Source: Dehalococcoidia bacterium
GTDB lineage: Bacteria > Chloroflexota > Dehalococcoidia > GIF9 > UBA5629
Direction: 5' to 3'
NCBI GenBank assembly: GCA_041653995.1
Contig: JBAZEK010000001.1
Location: 1,184,747-1,248,746, forward strand
Length of the DNA stretch: 64,000 nucleotides
Part shown: one piece after another, positions 1 to 3,747 of the stretch
How positions within the stretch are numbered: the stretch's first letter is position 1
How the letters are laid out: every line of letters starts with the position of its first letter
Program-made: the position numbers and the translations under genes
The notes under the pieces: model-generated
What the model was told of the DNA's origin: nothing
Seen by the model: only the letters and a program-made list of their open reading frames with translations
Database searches by the model: none

Positions 1-3000
1 CTTTCCTTTATCTTGAGGGCGTTCTTGACCGCCATCGAGCAGCAGATGCGGCTGCAGTAGGCCCTTTCCTCGTTGCGCGAGCCGGCGCACTGCACCATCA
101 CCACGTTCTTGCCCGCCCAGGTCGAATCATCCCGGCTCAAACGCTTCTCCAGCTCAAGCTGAGTGATCACCCTGCCGTCCTTCCCGTACAAATATTCCCG
201 GGCCGCGGCCGGCTCGGCGCCGGTGGCCACGATGATGGCGCCGCAGGAGACCTTGATGTCTTTGGCATCCTGGAAAATGGTCGCTTCGAACTGCCCAATA
301 AAGCCGGATACGCCGGTCACGTCGGCGTTCAGATGCATGACGATGTTGGGACTCTCCTCCACCTGCCTGACCAGGCCGGCGACAAATGGTTGAATGTCCT
401 CGTGCTCCAGCGTGTAATTCAAATCGAGCGCGTTGCCGCCCAGCCTGCCGGACTTCTCCACCAGGTGCACTTTGAAGCCCTGACCCGCCAGCGCCAGCGC
501 GGCGGTCATGCCGCTCACGCCGCCGCCCATTACCAGGCCCGTCTGGTCCACGGCAAAGGTGGTGCCGGTCAGCGGCGCCAGCAGCCTGGCCCGCGCCACC
601 GACATCTTCATAAGCTGTATGGCTTTATTTGTGGCCTGCTCCGGCTCGGCGGAGTGCACCCACGAGCACTGGTCCCTGATGTTGGCCAGCTCGAATAGAT
701 ACGGGTTGAGGCCGGCCTCCCTCAGCGTCTCGCGGAAAATGGGCTCGTGCGTGCGCGGCGTGCAGGACGCCACCACCACACGGTTGAGACGGTGCTTGTG
801 TATCATGTCATGTATGTTGTTGAGACTGGAATCGGCGCAGGTGTACATGGTGTGCGTGGCGAAGACCACGCCCGGCAATTGCGCTGCGGCCTGCGCTACC
901 TTCTCAACGTCCACCACCGAGGCGATGTTCTTGCCGCAGTGGCAGACGAACACGCCGATCCTGGGCTGCTCGTCGGTTACATCGTGCTCCTCCGGGTAGA
1001 CCGGTTTGCTGATCAATGAGTTGCGCGCCTCGGCCAGCAGCTCCATCGACAGCGAAGCCGCCGCGCTGGCCTGCGTCACGGTCTCGGGTATGTCCTTTGG
1101 CTCCTGGAAGGCCCCGGCCACGTACACACCGGGACGCGAGGTCTCAAGCGGCGATAGCCGGTCGGTGGAGCAGAACCCGTACTCGTTCAGATCGATGCCC
1201 AGGCGTAAGGCGGCCTCCCCGGCATCTTTGCCGGGCTGCATGCCCACCGAGAGCACGACCAGGTCGAACTCCTGCTCCTGCATTTCGCCATCGTCGGCAT
1301 AATATTGCAAACGCAGGTCGCCCGTGCCCGGAACCTGCAGGACGCGCGAAGGCATGCTCCTGATGTAATTTATATTTCCGCTGCTCCTGGCGCGCTCGTA
1401 ATACTGGTCGAAGTCCTTGCCGTGGGCGCGGATATCCATGTAGAAGATCGCGCACTGCAGCCCGGCCGCGTGGTCGGACGCCACCAGCGCCTGCTTGGTG
1501 GAGACCATGCAGCAGACCGAGGAGCAGTAGCCGCTGCCGCACTTCTCGTCGCGCGAACCCACGCACTGTATCCAGGCGATGCGATGCGCCTCTTTACCGT
1601 CGGAGCGCCGTACGACGCGACCCTCGAAGGGGCCGGAGGCCGACAGCATACGCTCGAACTGCACGCTGGTCAGGACGTTGGCATAGCGGCCGAAGCCGAA
1701 CTCGCCCTTCTTCTCCGCCGGAAACTCCTCGAAGCCCGGCGCCAGTATGACCGAGCCCACCTCCAGTTTGACCTCGCGCTGCCCCATGTAATGGTCTATG
1801 GCGTTCTGCTCGCAGGCGCCCACGCACTCACGGCACTCGGAGCACAATGCGCAGTTTAAACAGCGCTCGCTCTCGGCCAGCGCAGCATCTTCACTCAGTC
1901 CACCCTCGGTCTCATCAAAATTGCCGCTCCGCTGAGCGGCTGGCAAATATTCCGGCACGGCCCGCGCGACCTTCCGCTTCCCGGAGATATCCGGCAGCAG
2001 GTCCTCGGGCAGCGGTCTTACCGTATCCTCGAAACGGCCGCCGCGCAGATCCTGGCTCTTCAAATAGCGGTCGATGGACTCCGCGGCCTTCTTGCCCGCG
2101 CCCACCGCCTGTATGATGGAAGCGGGTCCCGACACACTGTCGCCGCCGGCGAATATACCCGCCGCCGAGGTCTCAAACGTCACGGGATCGATCTTGAAGC
2201 AGCCGCGCTCGATGTCCAGCCCGGCGGCGCCGATGAAGCCTTTGTCCAGCGCCTGCCCGATGGCGATGATGACATGGTCGGCCTGTATCGTCCTCAGCTC
2301 CTTTTCATCGTAGGCCGGGCAGAAGCGCCCCTCGTTATCAAATACGCTGGCGCAGCGTTTCAATTCGATGCCGGTTACTGATCCCTCACCAAGTATGCGG
2401 CGCGGTCCCCAGCCGTTGGTCACCGTGATGCCTTCCGCAAGCGTGTCGGCGACCTCCTCCGGCAGGGCCGGCATCTCGTCCCTCTGCTCCAGCGCTACCA
2501 TCTCCACGCTCTCCGCGCCCAGGCGCAACGCCGTGCGCGCCACATCCACGGCTACGTTGCCGCCGCCTATCACGACCGCCCTGCCGCTAACTTCAGGCGG
2601 ATTACTCACATCGGCCGCCCGCCTGAGAAACTCCACACCGTAATCTATGCCCGCCAGGTTCTCGCCTTCCAGGCCCAGCCTTCGGCTGACCTGCACGCCC
2701 ACGCCCACAAAGACCGCGTCATTGTCCTGCCTGATCTTGCCGAACTCGATTTCTTTGCCGATACGGCAACCGTATTTAAAGGCAACGCCTTTGCGGCGGA
2801 TAAGCTCCACTTCATAATCGAGAATATTCTTGGGCAGGCGGTACCCGGGTATGCCCCAGCGCAGCATGCCGCCCGCGGCGGAAGACGCCTCGTAAACGGT
2901 AACGGCATAACCTCGATCAGCCAGGTCGGCGGCTGCCGTCAATCCGGCCGGTCCGGCCCCGATCACGGCCACCTTCTTCGCGCCCGGCGGGGGCGTCTTC

Positions 3001-3747
3001 TCCTCGGGCAGGGCTATCTGCCCGGACTCCACCAGCTCCATCTCACGGTCGGAGGCGAACTTTTTAAGCAGTCGTATTGCGACCGGCTCGTCCAGGTTGC
3101 CGCGCGTGCAGACGGCCTCGCAGGGATGGTTGCAGGCGCGCCCGCAGATGGCGGAAAGCGGGTTCCGCTCCCGTATCAGGTTGACCGCCTTCACGTACTC
3201 CTTCTTCTTGATCAGCTGTATGTAGCCCTGCACATTGATATTGGCCGGGCAGGCTACCTTGCAGGGCGCGTGTCCGTTTTTCAGTATGCCGAAGATGTTG
3301 GGCGTGGCCTGGGCGTAATGCTTGGCGATGGCCTTGCGCGTGCCCATCTCGCGATCAAAGTGGTTGGGCACGTCGACCGGACAGACATCGGTGCACTGCT
3401 CGCAGGCTGTGCACTTAGACTCGTCGACGTAGCGGGGATAGCGCCTGACCGTGGCGGTGAAGCTGCCCGGCTCGCCCTGCAGGTCGGCCAGCTCAGACAG
3501 GGTCAGTATCTCCACGTTGGGGTTGCGCGCGCATTCCACCAGCTTGGGCGACACTATGCAGGTGGCGCAGTCGCCGGTGGGGAATGTCTTGTCCAGGTGC
3601 GACATCATGCCGCCGATGGCGGCCAACCGCTCCACCAGGTAGACCTTGAAGCCCGACCCGGCCAGGTCCAGCGCCGCCTGTATGCCGGCGATGCCTCCGC
3701 CCTGCACCAGCACCGCGCCCGTCTTTTTCTTTATATCTTCACCCATA
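1..3747 (-). CDS. hdrA: Giant HdrA-like FAD/Fe-S flavoprotein, 3'-partial (runs off the window start). It has two HdrA-type modules and an embedded GltD/NfnB-like NAD(P)H-binding domain.
   Basis: Manual minus-strand translation from ATG 3747: MGEDIKKKTGAVLVQGGGIAGIQAALDLAGSGFKV (HdrA FAD fingerprint). [29 protein letters not shown] (GltD-like Rossmann domain, verified at 2941-2973). WIQCVGSRDEKCGSGYCSSVCC (HdrA Cys cluster, verified near 1521-1570). A second VMGGGVSGMTAALALAGQGFKV and VMVQCAGSRNEERAYCSRICCS follow. The frame is continuous to position 1. The plus-strand ORFs here are antisense shadows. Confidence 0.8.

What the first reader, a model, noticed from the sequence alone, without database searches (positions are those of the whole stretch)
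1..3747. Giant HdrA-like protein with two HdrA modules and an embedded GltD-like domain, missed by the ORF track
Manual translation of the minus strand from ATG 3747 gives an uninterrupted reading frame of more than 1249 aa running off the window start. It contains an HdrA FAD fingerprint (GAVLVQGGGIAGIQAALDLAGSGF) and a GltD/NfnB-like Rossmann domain ([30 protein letters not shown]). It has the HdrA Cys cluster CVGSRDEKCGSGYCSSVCC. It also has a second FAD fingerprint (VMGGGVSGMTAALALAGQGFKV) with a second Cys cluster (CAGSRNEERAYCSRICC). A tandem HdrA-HdrA polypeptide with an inserted NAD(P)H-binding domain is an unusual architecture for the bifurcating subunit. Every listed plus-strand ORF in 1-3760 is an antisense shadow.
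Basis: seen in the sequence. Interest (0 to 1): 0.65.

Follow-up and report, generated by a model that had tools for sequence, protein, structure and literature searches.

The report
Giant three-flavin HdrA fusion protein
The window's left end encodes most of a real 1,495-residue iron-sulfur flavoprotein made of two complementary HdrA halves with an NADH-type NfnB/GltD module spliced in; it is the core subunit of a Moorella-type methylene-tetrahydrofolate reductase/Hdr gene cluster, and the architecture is widespread and its building blocks are already described, so it is a good catch but not a new kind of enzyme.

Summary
A minus-strand ORF starts at ATG 3746 (not 3747) and is open to base 1. 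An identical ENA contig completes it to 1,495 aa. All five quoted motifs are present.

- Module 1 is an HdrA that lacks the N-terminal and C-terminal ferredoxin domains and keeps the DCxxC pair.
- A complete NfnB/GltD-type module splits module 1's inserted ferredoxin domain.
- Module 2 is an HdrA with the N-terminal and C-terminal ferredoxin domains but no inserted ferredoxin domain and no DCxxC.

It is not rare. Relatives occur in more than 600 species genomes, and the best 80 loci all align across almost the whole protein; they span many bacterial phyla and three archaeal groups. The parts are published: HdrL (2009), fused complementary HdrAs and NfnB inserts (2022), and variable HdrA in type IV methylene-THF reductases (2021).

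The gene sits in a translationally coupled cluster: mvhD, metF, three glutamate-synthase-like genes, hdrC, hdrB, the giant hdrA, mvhD, metV.

Best reading: it is the NADH-oxidising core of a MetFV-HdrABC-MvhD complex. The conserved glutamate-synthase-like trio in this subfamily is the only element I could not find described.

The parts
1..3746 (-). Giant HdrA-NfnB/GltD-HdrA gene, codons 1-1248 of 1,495. The last 247 codons lie beyond the window's left edge.
   Evidence: Open frame. Completed by the identical contig L001:1296-5783. Pfam and NCBIfam hits. Exact protein is P0001.
3276..3746 (-). HdrA module 1, first part (res 1-157): FAD GxGxxG (G16/18/21), DCATC (C60, C63), and the first [4Fe-4S] motif of the inserted ferredoxin domain (C112-C122).
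   Evidence: Aligns to 5odc_A residues 143-288. These residues are invariant in alignment A1.
1872..3275 (-). Embedded NfnB/NfnL/GltD-type module (res 158-625): Fer4_20 with two cluster motifs, FAD Rossmann fold (G263/265/268), and a dinucleotide Rossmann fold GGGNVA with an 'ALEQR' beta2 end.
   Evidence: Pfam Fer4_20 and Pyr_redox_2. PDB sequence hits 9bov_A, 9n5u_A, 8oh5_C, 5jca_L and 4ylf_B. Foldseek target-normalised TM about 0.78 to NfnL/NfnB.
1017..1871 (-). HdrA module 1, second part (res 626-910): second ferredoxin motif (C635-C645, plus extra C629/C632), the C728/C741/C745/C746 cluster, and K751 (= Lys409 of 5ODC).
   Evidence: Aligns to 5odc_A residues 292-567. Conservation.
567..1016 (-). 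N-terminal-type HdrA domain of module 2 (res 911-1060): VFVCHCG, C970, C995, SWVH.
   Evidence: Aligns to 5odc_A from residue 2 onward; the stretch 2-239 also covers the start of the flavin domain. The Cys are kept in 72-74 of 74 double-HdrA representatives.
1..566 (-). HdrA module 2 flavin domain, in-window part (res 1061-1248): FAD GxGxxG (G1074/1076/1079), no Cys at the Cys194/197-equivalent positions, no inserted ferredoxin domain, C1220/1231/1235/1236 cluster. The rest, including the C-terminal 2x[4Fe-4S] domain (res 1409-1459), lies outside the window.
3761..4633 (-). HdrB-like subunit (290 aa, two CCG domains).
   Evidence: PF02754, E = 3.6e-20. TIGR03288 hit. Its stop is 14 nt upstream of the giant gene's ATG.
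4630..5199 (-). HdrC-like subunit (189 aa, two CxxCxxCxxxC motifs).
   Evidence: Overlaps hdrB by 4 nt.
5222..7879 (-). Glutamate-synthase-like protein (885 aa): Ntn-amidotransferase-like region with CGVVGF at Cys35, HQRFPT and HNGD motifs, plus a GXGXG beta-helix domain.
   Evidence: PF01493 and PF13522. Weak PDB hits to FwdC and Fd-GOGAT. Motifs read.
7876..9522 (-). Glutamate-synthase FMN-domain protein with an N-terminal 2x[4Fe-4S] domain (548 aa as listed). The true start is probably Met32 at 9429.
   Evidence: PF01645, E = 2.8e-90. GltB PDB hits at E = 1e-53. DGGYGGTGAAP and C466-x2-C-x2-C-x5-CP-x-GIAT motifs.
9422..10831 (-). Second, divergent Glu_synthase-like paralogue with an N-terminal FeS domain (469 aa).
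   Evidence: PF01645, E = 4e-12. Conserved at this position in L004-L009 and other loci.
10847..11749 (-). MetF (methylene-tetrahydrofolate reductase, 300 aa).
   Evidence: PF02219 and NCBIfam hits.
11760..12296 (-). First MvhD/FlpD-like gene. The listed TTG start is doubtful, since homologues are 125-142 aa. This is the first gene of the cluster.
   Evidence: PF02662. Genes beyond 12296 are unrelated.

Best explanation
The ORF encodes the large flavin and iron-sulfur subunit ('HdrA', of the HdrL kind) of a Moorella-type (type IV) methylene-tetrahydrofolate reductase complex, MetFV-HdrABC-MvhD.

The polypeptide is a covalently linked HdrA pseudo-heterodimer. Module 1 supplies the Cys pair (C60/C63) and the inserted ferredoxin domain. 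Module 2 supplies the N-terminal cluster domain and the C-terminal ferredoxin domain. Between them the two halves rebuild one asymmetric copy of what methanogen HdrA builds as a symmetric homodimer.

A complete NfnB/GltD-type module (FAD, two [4Fe-4S] clusters, a dinucleotide site) is spliced between the two cluster motifs of module 1's inserted ferredoxin domain. I infer that it is the NADH entry or exit port. The inferred path is: hydride to its FAD, single electrons through its two clusters into the flanking ferredoxin clusters and the HdrA flavins, and from there through MvhD, HdrC/HdrB and MetV to MetF.

What is shown: domain content, conservation of every cofactor ligand, the complementarity rule, and the gene linkage. 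What is inferred: NADH rather than NADPH as the dinucleotide, the direction of electron flow, which of the three flavins bifurcates, and the identity of the third redox partner. That partner is unknown even for the Moorella enzyme.
For: - **Domain map.** Alignment to 5odc_A gives the domain map for both modules.
- **Domain identification.** Pfam, NCBIfam and PDB hits identify the HdrA and NfnB/GltD parts.
- **Cofactor ligands.** All three GxGxxG motifs, all cluster cysteines, the Lys409 equivalents K751 and K1241, and R303 are invariant or nearly invariant down to 42% identity.
- **Complementarity.** Among 74 double-HdrA representatives, C60/C63 are kept in 68-69, the N-terminal-domain Cys of module 2 in 72-74, and 66 have no Cys at the equivalent site of module 2. 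This matches the rule that Chadwick et al. proposed for fused HdrAs, including the Moorella one (PMC9012536).
- **Gene context.** hdrC, hdrB, the giant gene, mvhD and metV have 4-nt overlaps or a 14-nt gap, and metF and a second mvhD are in the same cluster.
- **Context elsewhere.** MvhD follows the gene in nearly all of the 80 genome loci, and the Moorella order hdrCB-hdrA-mvhD-metV-metF occurs in about 20 of them.
- **NADH preference.** The beta2 end reads ALEQR where all NADPH-binding relatives have YRR[TS]. L419 and E420 are at least 90% conserved in the close subfamily.
- **Biochemistry of the family.** In type IV MTHFR, HdrA is the site of NADH oxidation, and its flavin and FeS content varies between organisms (PMC8760232).
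Against: - No biochemistry exists for this form.
The predicted contact between Cys63 and the N-terminal domain, and the cluster-to-cluster distances, are therefore untested.
- The Moorella complex did not couple NADH to methylene-THF in vitro, and its third partner is unknown (PMC8760232).
- In some loci the giant gene is accompanied only by mvhD, with no metFV or hdrBC within 10 kb, and those copies mostly carry the NADPH-type YRR. The architecture is therefore not tied exclusively to MetFV.
- In this subfamily metF is displaced upstream by three glutamate-synthase-like genes whose role the model does not explain.
- I could not retrieve Moth_1194 to see whether the characterised enzyme carries the insert.
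Confidence: 0.7

Rival explanations
1. The complex is primarily an Hdr-coupled glutamate-synthase-like enzyme. The embedded GltD-like module would act as the beta subunit for the adjacent split alpha-subunit homologues (FMN domain, amidotransferase-like, GXGXG). Electrons from NADH and/or methyl-THF would then end in reductive amination of 2-oxoglutarate or a related imine. This is not mutually exclusive with the main explanation.
For: - Three glutamate-synthase-like genes sit inside the cluster in the window and in 12 other loci from five phyla, in conserved order and with differing flanks.
- The FMN protein keeps DGGYGGTGAAP and a four-Cys cluster site before GIAT.
- The 885-aa protein keeps the CGVVGF, HQRFPT and HNGD amidotransferase motifs.
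- All eight trio loci whose motif could be read share the same acidic dinucleotide signature.
- In one locus an ammonium transporter and a glutamine-dependent NAD synthetase lie next to the cluster.
Against: - The GltD-like insert is equally present in the many loci that lack the trio, so it did not evolve for the trio.
- The insert is closer to NfnB/NfnA than to GltD and falls below the GOGAT small-subunit cut-offs.
- The amidotransferase Cys is at position 35 behind a leader, so activity would need processing.
- The 885-aa protein is very divergent from any solved GOGAT, with best E-values of 2e-5 to FwdC and 0.004 to Fd-GOGAT.
- The FMN protein has its own ferredoxin-type domain, like archaeal enzymes that, as far as I recall, work without a separate GltD-type subunit.
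Confidence: 0.2
2. The giant protein with MvhD is a self-contained NAD(P)H:ferredoxin or transhydrogenase-type module (Nfn-like) that merely sits next to metFV, and its physiological partners are elsewhere.
For: Several full-length homologues have only mvhD nearby, for example the Acidobacteriota loci L019, L031, L037 and L072 and Ca. Formimonas L065. The insert is most similar to the NAD(P)H modules of the NfnABC and StnABC transhydrogenases.
Against: In the window the genes overlap by 4 nt or lie 14 nt apart, with hdrB upstream and mvhD and metV downstream. The ten-gene order is conserved across phyla. Those MvhD-only copies belong to more distant subfamilies of the YRR type.
Confidence: 0.08
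3. The long ORF is an artefact: a sequencing frameshift or chimeric assembly that fuses separate hdrA, gltD and hdrA genes.
For: None was found.
Against: Independent ENA, Logan, NCBI and JGI records carry identical sequence. More than 120 database clusters (grouped at 90% identity) are 1,449-1,515 aa long at 67-100% identity. Another 18 more distant clusters (grouped at 50% identity) have the same layout. The insert splits a ferredoxin domain rather than lying between genes.
Confidence: 0.01

Closest known systems
HdrA of the Moorella thermoacetica MetFV-HdrABC-MvhD complex (type IV methylene-THF reductase; Mock et al. 2014, as summarised in PMC5861303, PMC8760232 and PMC9012536)
   Same: - The gene set is the same, and from hdrC to metV the local order is the same.
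- HdrA is described as two fused HdrA domains with complementary loss of Cys197 and the N-terminal domain.
- HdrA is the NADH-oxidising subunit.
- MvhD is present without a hydrogenase.
   Different: - The published cofactor count for Moorella (2 FAD in HdrA, 9 [4Fe-4S] in the complex) fits the roughly 1,000-aa insert-less form, which is the commonest relative here. The window protein has a third flavin module and two more clusters. This is an inference, because the Moorella sequence could not be retrieved.
- Here metF is moved upstream together with a second mvhD and three glutamate-synthase-like genes.
- The module order (N-terminal-domain-less module first) is the reverse of what Chadwick et al. 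describe for ANME HdrA3/4.
ANME-1 HdrA9/10/11 with an NfnB-like insertion (Chadwick et al. 2022, PMC9012536)
   Same: An NfnB-like block of about 500 aa interrupts the inserted ferredoxin domain of HdrA. The same position is found here.
   Different: As described in the paper, those are single HdrAs. The corresponding single-HdrA form with insert (about 1,120 aa) exists as a separate class among the relatives found here (10 of 150). The window protein adds a second, complementary HdrA module and is linked to MetFV.
HdrL of Desulfobacterium autotrophicum and Syntrophobacter fumaroxidans (PMC2702500, PMC5947623)
   Same: It is defined as a large HdrA/glutamate-synthase fusion with an NADH-binding domain, followed by mvhD. 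The window protein meets that description.
   Different: [quoted passage not shown]
- Its proposed role is in sulfate reduction through DsrC, which I expect a Dehalococcoidia genome to lack (not checked here).
- Some HdrL contain selenocysteine, whereas this protein has Cys.
Methanogen HdrA in MvhAGD-HdrABC (PDB 5ODC)
   Same: The flavin domain, the C...C...CC cluster, Lys409, the N-terminal domain, and the inserted and C-terminal ferredoxin domains all have counterparts. HdrB and HdrC are adjacent.
   Different: The domains are distributed over two non-identical modules in one chain. The scores fall below the NCBIfam equivalog cut-offs. There is no hydrogenase and no CoM/CoB context. An NAD(H) module is added.
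NfnB/NfnL of NfnAB and the GltD-like domain of NfnA/StnA in NfnABC/StnABC (PDB 4YLF, 5JCA, 9BOV, 9N5U, 8OH5)
   Same: The module is complete, with two [4Fe-4S] clusters, FAD, a dinucleotide site and the GIPxYRLPK motif. Identity is 37-40% and the fold matches.
   Different: It is embedded inside another protein's ferredoxin domain. The YRR 2'-phosphate signature is replaced by LEQ in this subfamily.

Membership tests
HdrA (methanogen CoB-CoM heterodisulfide reductase subunit A) | Thioredoxin-reductase-like FAD domain with GxGxxG and the FAD-N5 lysine (Lys409 in 5ODC). | tested here: met
   Present twice. G16/18/21 with K751, and G1074/1076/1079 with K1241, are invariant or nearly invariant.
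HdrA (methanogen CoB-CoM heterodisulfide reductase subunit A) | A full domain set in one module: N-terminal cluster domain, Cys197, inserted ferredoxin domain and C-terminal ferredoxin domain. | tested here: not met
   Neither module has the full set. The features are split between the two modules in a complementary way.
HdrA (methanogen CoB-CoM heterodisulfide reductase subunit A) | Score above the NCBIfam equivalog cut-off. | tested here: not met
   HdrA2 model: 775.9 bits against a cut-off of 1100. HdrA model: 533.8 against 1400.
Fused complementary double HdrA (Chadwick et al. 2022) | [quoted passage not shown] | tested here: met
   for the window protein. The rule holds in 66-74 of 74 representative clusters. 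The module order is reversed relative to ANME HdrA3/4 as described in that paper.
HdrL (Strittmatter et al. 2009) | A large HdrA fused to a glutamate-synthase-small-subunit-like NADH-binding domain, with mvhD directly downstream. | tested here: met
   for the domains. MvhD is at L001:5780-6223 and overlaps the stop codon.
Type IV methylene-THF reductase (MetFV-HdrABC-MvhD) | metF, metV, hdrA, hdrB, hdrC and mvhD in one gene cluster. | tested here: met
   All six are present. The cluster is conserved in other genomes.
Type IV methylene-THF reductase (MetFV-HdrABC-MvhD) | Physical complex; NADH:viologen activity and viologen:methylene-THF activity. | not testable with these tools
   Needs purification and enzyme assays.
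NfnB/GltD family | N-terminal two-[4Fe-4S] domain (Fer4_20), FAD Rossmann fold and dinucleotide Rossmann fold. | tested here: met
   PF14691 at E = 1e-18 and PF07992 at E = 5e-50. Fold match with target-normalised TM about 0.78. The Cys are invariant.
NfnB/GltD family | NADPH specificity signature Y-R-R at the end of beta2. | tested here: not met
   The window has ALEQR where five NADPH-binding relatives have YRR[TS]. Other subfamilies with the same architecture do have YRR.
Glutamate synthase small subunit (GltD proper) | Score above the TIGR01317, TIGR01318 or TIGR01316 cut-offs. | tested here: not met
   206 bits against 448, 228 against 483, and 316 against 472.
Glutamate synthase small subunit (GltD proper) | Partnership with a GltB-type large subunit. 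| tested here: inconclusive
   GltB-like genes are adjacent, but most homologues with the same insert have no such neighbours.

The most novel reading that the evidence does not exclude
In this subfamily (Dehalococcoidales, Pirellulales, Desulfosudis, Bryobacteraceae, Armatimonadota) the MetFV-HdrABC-MvhD machinery has recruited a split, archaeal-style glutamate-synthase-like enzyme and a second MvhD into one ten-gene operon. The glutamate-synthase-like module would then be the long-sought third redox partner of this type of methylene-THF reductase. It could be a built-in acceptor, or a donor, that takes the place of free ferredoxin. That would directly couple one-carbon redox chemistry to 2-oxoglutarate/glutamine chemistry through a three-flavin HdrA. 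I found no description of this association in the searchable literature.
Probability: 0.2. Interest if true: 0.7.

Novelty: new member of a known kind. Interest (0 to 1): 0.38.

Why it matters
Type IV methylene-THF reductases sit at the thermodynamic bottleneck of the Wood-Ljungdahl pathway, and their third redox partner has been unknown since 2014. This protein shows, in one chain, how the HdrA platform is rebuilt as an asymmetric pseudo-dimer with a plug-in NAD(H) port. The family analysis shows that the port comes in NADH-like and NADPH-like versions and can be absent. That is useful for annotation, because NCBI currently names the protein only 'FAD-dependent oxidoreductase'. It is also useful for choosing a target for structural work, since no fused double HdrA has a solved structure. 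The glutamate-synthase-like genes in the operon give a concrete, testable candidate for a partner reaction in one subfamily. None of this changes what kind of enzyme it is.

Tried and rejected
- **Frame from 3747.** The ATG is at 3746.
- **Native residues 1-1200.** This model was only moderate (pTM 0.46) and its coordinates are not exposed, so Cys63 to N-terminal-domain distances could not be measured. I substituted a family-wide complementarity count.
- **Fold search.** The search with that model was dominated by the NfnB-like domain and added nothing on HdrA packing.
- **Papers not held.** Mock et al. 2014 and Pereira et al. 2011 are not held. Whether Moth_1194 carries the insert therefore remains inferred from cofactor counts in a review.
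- **'HdrL' search.** A plain search for 'HdrL' mostly returned reinforcement-learning papers.
- **Regex failures.** My first regex-based motif count failed on 47 of 150 proteins and was replaced by an alignment. A first beta2-motif regex matched nothing and was loosened; even then it read only 37 of 86 loci.
- **A correction.** I first attributed at least 90% conservation of Glu420 to the broad alignment A1. It holds only for the close subfamily alignment A3.
- **Readings considered and rejected.** A true CoM-S-S-CoB reductase is unlikely: the scores fall below the equivalog cut-offs, there is no hydrogenase in the cluster, and I would not expect CoM or CoB in a Dehalococcoidia bacterium (background knowledge, not checked). 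Assembly chimera is rejected by identical independent assemblies. Plus-strand ORFs as genes are rejected by their permuted codon-position GC.

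
Full report
**1. Observation**

Translating the minus strand from 3747 gives a frame full of stops. The ATG lies at 3746-3744, and that frame is open down to window base 1, giving 1,248 codons plus two bases.

The ORF lister did not show this ORF only because it omits ORFs that run off an end of the window.

An ENA metagenome contig (L001) is identical to the window over 4,633 bp and runs on to a stop codon, so the full protein has 1,495 residues. 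Two Logan assemblies from other sequencing runs are identical over 4,668 and 2,333 bp. The identical protein is held by NCBI ('MAG: FAD-dependent oxidoreductase [Dehalococcoidia bacterium]') and by JGI. A frameshift or chimera is therefore excluded.

Codon-position GC of the ORF (0.63/0.45/0.82) equals that of the neighbouring genes. The listed plus-strand ORFs show permuted patterns, as shadows of a GC3-rich gene would.

**2. Anatomy**

Alignment to the solved methanogen HdrA (5ODC chain A) gives a clean map.

| Residues | Matches 5ODC | Content |
|---|---|---|
| 9-154 | 143-288 | flavin domain start, including DCATC (C60/C63 = Cys194/Cys197), and the first cluster motif of the inserted ferredoxin domain |
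| 158 to about 625 | none | complete NfnB/GltD-type module: Fer4_20, FAD fold, dinucleotide fold |
| 634-906 | 292-567 | second ferredoxin motif and the rest of the flavin domain, with the C728/C741/C745/C746 cluster |
| about 926-1163 | 2-239 | N-terminal cluster domain and the start of a second flavin domain |
| (short gap of about 8 residues in the alignment) | 240-322 missing | the inserted ferredoxin domain is absent, and there is no Cys at the Cys194/197 positions |
| about 1170-1480 | 323-652 | rest of the flavin domain and the C-terminal 2x[4Fe-4S] domain |

The NfnB/GltD-type module is identified.

The two HdrA modules are therefore complementary halves, not duplicates.

In a 21-sequence alignment reaching 42% identity, the following are invariant or nearly invariant:
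- all three GxGxxG motifs
- every cluster cysteine
- the equivalents of the FAD-N5 lysine of HdrA (K751, K1241)
- R303 in GIPxYRLPK

From these ligands I count three flavins and about nine [4Fe-4S] sites in this one chain. That count is an inference from the motifs.

**3. How common it is**

The word-indexed search returned more than 120 clusters (grouped at 90% identity) of 1,449-1,515 aa at 67-100% identity, matching 97-100% of the query.

In the library clustered at 50% identity, 6,425 representatives match at E <= 1e-30. Among the best 150:
- 18 have exactly this layout.
- 56 have the same two-module order without a full NfnB/GltD block (49 with no insert, 7 with a shorter one).
- 11 are the first module plus insert only.
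- 10 are complete single HdrAs with the insert.

The best 80 loci align from within the first 23 residues out to residue 1275 or beyond. They come from:
- Bacteria: Chloroflexota, Planctomycetota, Desulfobacterota, Acidobacteriota, Bacillota (including Desulfotruncus arcticus DSM 17038 and the complete genome of Ca. Formimonas warabiya), Atribacterota, Thermotogota, Armatimonadota and Spirochaetota.
- Archaea: Promethearchaeota, Hodarchaeota and Thermoplasmatota.

**4. Complementarity as a family rule**

I aligned 74 double-HdrA representatives.

| Feature | Kept in |
|---|---|
| Module 1 C60/C63 | 68-69 of 74 (the rest mostly gaps) |
| Module 2 N-terminal-domain cysteines | 72-74 of 74 |
| No cysteine at the Cys194/197-equivalent stretch of module 2 | 66 of 74 |

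Both flavin motifs and both C...C...CC clusters are kept.

This is the pattern Chadwick et al. described for tandem and fused HdrAs, including the Moorella one. They interpreted it as a heterodimer within one peptide (PMC9012536). The module order here is the reverse of their ANME HdrA3/4.

I could not test the geometry. 

**5. The embedded module**

By fold and by sequence it is closest to the large subunits of Nfn and to the NAD(P)H modules of NfnABC and StnABC (37-40% identity, target-normalised TM about 0.78). True GltD is more distant, at 28-31%. It falls below all the GltD and GltA cut-offs.

At the end of beta2 of the dinucleotide fold, all five NADPH-binding relatives read YRR[TS], whereas the window protein reads ALEQR. 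L419 and E420 are at least 90% conserved among homologues of 67% identity or more. By the usual Rossmann-fold rule, an acidic residue at that position favours NADH. This is an inference, not a measurement.

The signature is not uniform across the architecture. The motif could be read in 37 of 86 loci:

| Locus type | Acidic (NADH-like) | YRR (NADPH-like) |
|---|---|---|
| With the glutamate-synthase-like trio | 8 | 0 |
| MvhD only nearby | 2 | 14 |
| MetV-linked | 6 | 7 |

**6. Context**

On the minus strand the cluster reads, in order:

1. mvhD (11760-12296)
2. metF (10847-11749)
3. a divergent Glu_synthase-like gene (9422-10831)
4. a ferredoxin-plus-FMN Glu_synthase gene (7876-9522)
5. an amidotransferase-like/GXGXG gene (5222-7879)
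6. hdrC (4630-5199)
7. hdrB (3761-4633)
8. the giant gene (3746-1 and beyond)
9. mvhD (beyond the window edge)
10. metV (beyond the window edge)

Several junctions overlap by 4 nt, which indicates one operon. Genes beyond 12296 are unrelated.

Three contigs looked up through homologous proteins have the same ten genes in the same order: L004 and L006, which are unnamed JGI metagenome contigs, and L005 from a Sedimentisphaerales genome. Nine genome-scan loci also carry the glutamate-synthase-like genes: L007 to L011, L015, L027, L057 and L059, from Dehalococcoidales, Pirellulales, an unclassified Chloroflexi MAG, Desulfosudis, Bryobacteraceae and Armatimonadota. In the Desulfosudis locus (L010) part of the set is rearranged, and some contigs are truncated.

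More distant homologues mostly show the plain Moorella order hdrC-hdrB-hdrA-mvhD-metV-metF, or only mvhD.

**7. Mechanism**

The best-supported reading is that this is the HdrA subunit of a type IV methylene-THF reductase. The literature says that in this class MetF reduces methylene-THF and HdrA oxidises NADH. It also says that the flavin and FeS content of HdrA differs between organisms, and that the second acceptor is unknown (PMC8760232; PMC5861303).

I propose this path:
1. The NfnB-like module takes the hydride from NADH.
2. Its two clusters feed the split ferredoxin domain of module 1 and the HdrA flavins.
3. The pseudo-dimer provides one N-terminal-domain cluster, built from module 2 plus Cys63 of module 1, for MvhD.
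4. HdrC, HdrB and MetV carry electrons on to MetF.

Which flavin bifurcates, and in which direction the enzyme runs in a Dehalococcoidia cell, cannot be decided from sequence.

The published cofactor count for the Moorella enzyme (2 FAD in HdrA, 9 [4Fe-4S] in the complex) fits the insert-less form. On that inference the window protein is a three-flavin variant of the characterised enzyme. I could not obtain the Moorella sequence to check this.

**8. The glutamate-synthase-like genes**

They do not look like decayed genes:
- The FMN protein keeps the FMN motif and a four-Cys site before GIAT.
- The 885-aa protein keeps the CGVVGF, HQRFPT and HNGD amidotransferase motifs, although Cys35 lies behind a 34-residue leader.

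Three literature searches found no description of these genes within an Hdr/MetFV cluster.

They might be a built-in redox partner, or an enzyme that uses the embedded GltD-like module as its beta subunit. Against the second idea, the insert is just as conserved in the many loci that lack these genes.

**9. Verdict**

The architecture is widespread, already deposited in public databases, and assembled from published elements: HdrL, fused complementary HdrAs, and the NfnB insertion. I rate it a new member of a known kind, of moderate interest. The unexplained glutamate-synthase-like trio is the part most worth following up.

Noticed in passing
window 5222-10831 (minus strand); also L004-L011, L015, L027, L057, L059: Three glutamate-synthase-like genes are embedded between metF and hdrC in a conserved ten-gene cluster: a divergent Glu_synthase paralogue, a ferredoxin-plus-FMN Glu_synthase domain protein, and an amidotransferase-like/GXGXG protein. 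The cluster occurs in five phyla, and the catalytic motifs are largely intact. I found no description of this in the searchable literature.
   Followed up: partly
window 11760-12296 and L001:5780-6223: The cluster has two different MvhD/FlpD genes, one at each end. The giant HdrA has only one N-terminal-type domain, which I take to be the MvhD docking site (my inference from the methanogen complex). The partner of the second MvhD is therefore unclear. The listed TTG start of the first one gives 178 aa, whereas homologues are 125-142 aa, so it is probably too far upstream.
   Followed up: no
genome loci L007-L086: Within the same HdrA-NfnB-HdrA architecture, the dinucleotide signature switches between the NADPH-type YRR and an acidic LE type. 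The acidic type is found in all loci with the glutamate-synthase-like trio that could be read. YRR dominates in loci where only mvhD is nearby.
   Followed up: partly
window 50280-62484 (minus strand): Seven tandem paralogous genes of about 547-575 aa lie in a row. Two were confirmed as AMP-binding (acyl-CoA-synthetase-like) enzymes. Pairwise identity is 49-81%. This is a large local expansion of acyl/aryl-CoA ligases.
   Followed up: partly
window 46230-50253 (plus strand): A CoA-disulfide-reductase-like flavoprotein with a C-terminal rhodanese domain (572 aa) is followed by a 753-aa fusion of a GatZ/KbaZ-like domain and a PfkB kinase domain.
   Followed up: no
window 20674-22464 (plus strand): A 596-aa multidomain protein combines thioredoxin-like, fibronectin type III and AhpC/TSA (peroxiredoxin) domains. 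It lies downstream of a DsbD-type membrane protein gene.
   Followed up: no
window 7876-9522 versus 9422-10831: The listed ORFs overlap by about 100 nt. The FMN-domain gene most likely starts at Met32 (about 9429), which gives 517 aa against 522-528 aa in homologues.
   Followed up: partly
representatives P0136, P0141, P0142, P0147, P0149, P0175, P0219: A third state of the insertion site exists. These double HdrAs carry a 190-350-aa insert that matches only part of the NfnB/GltD module. They may represent a trimmed NAD(P)-binding unit.
   Followed up: no
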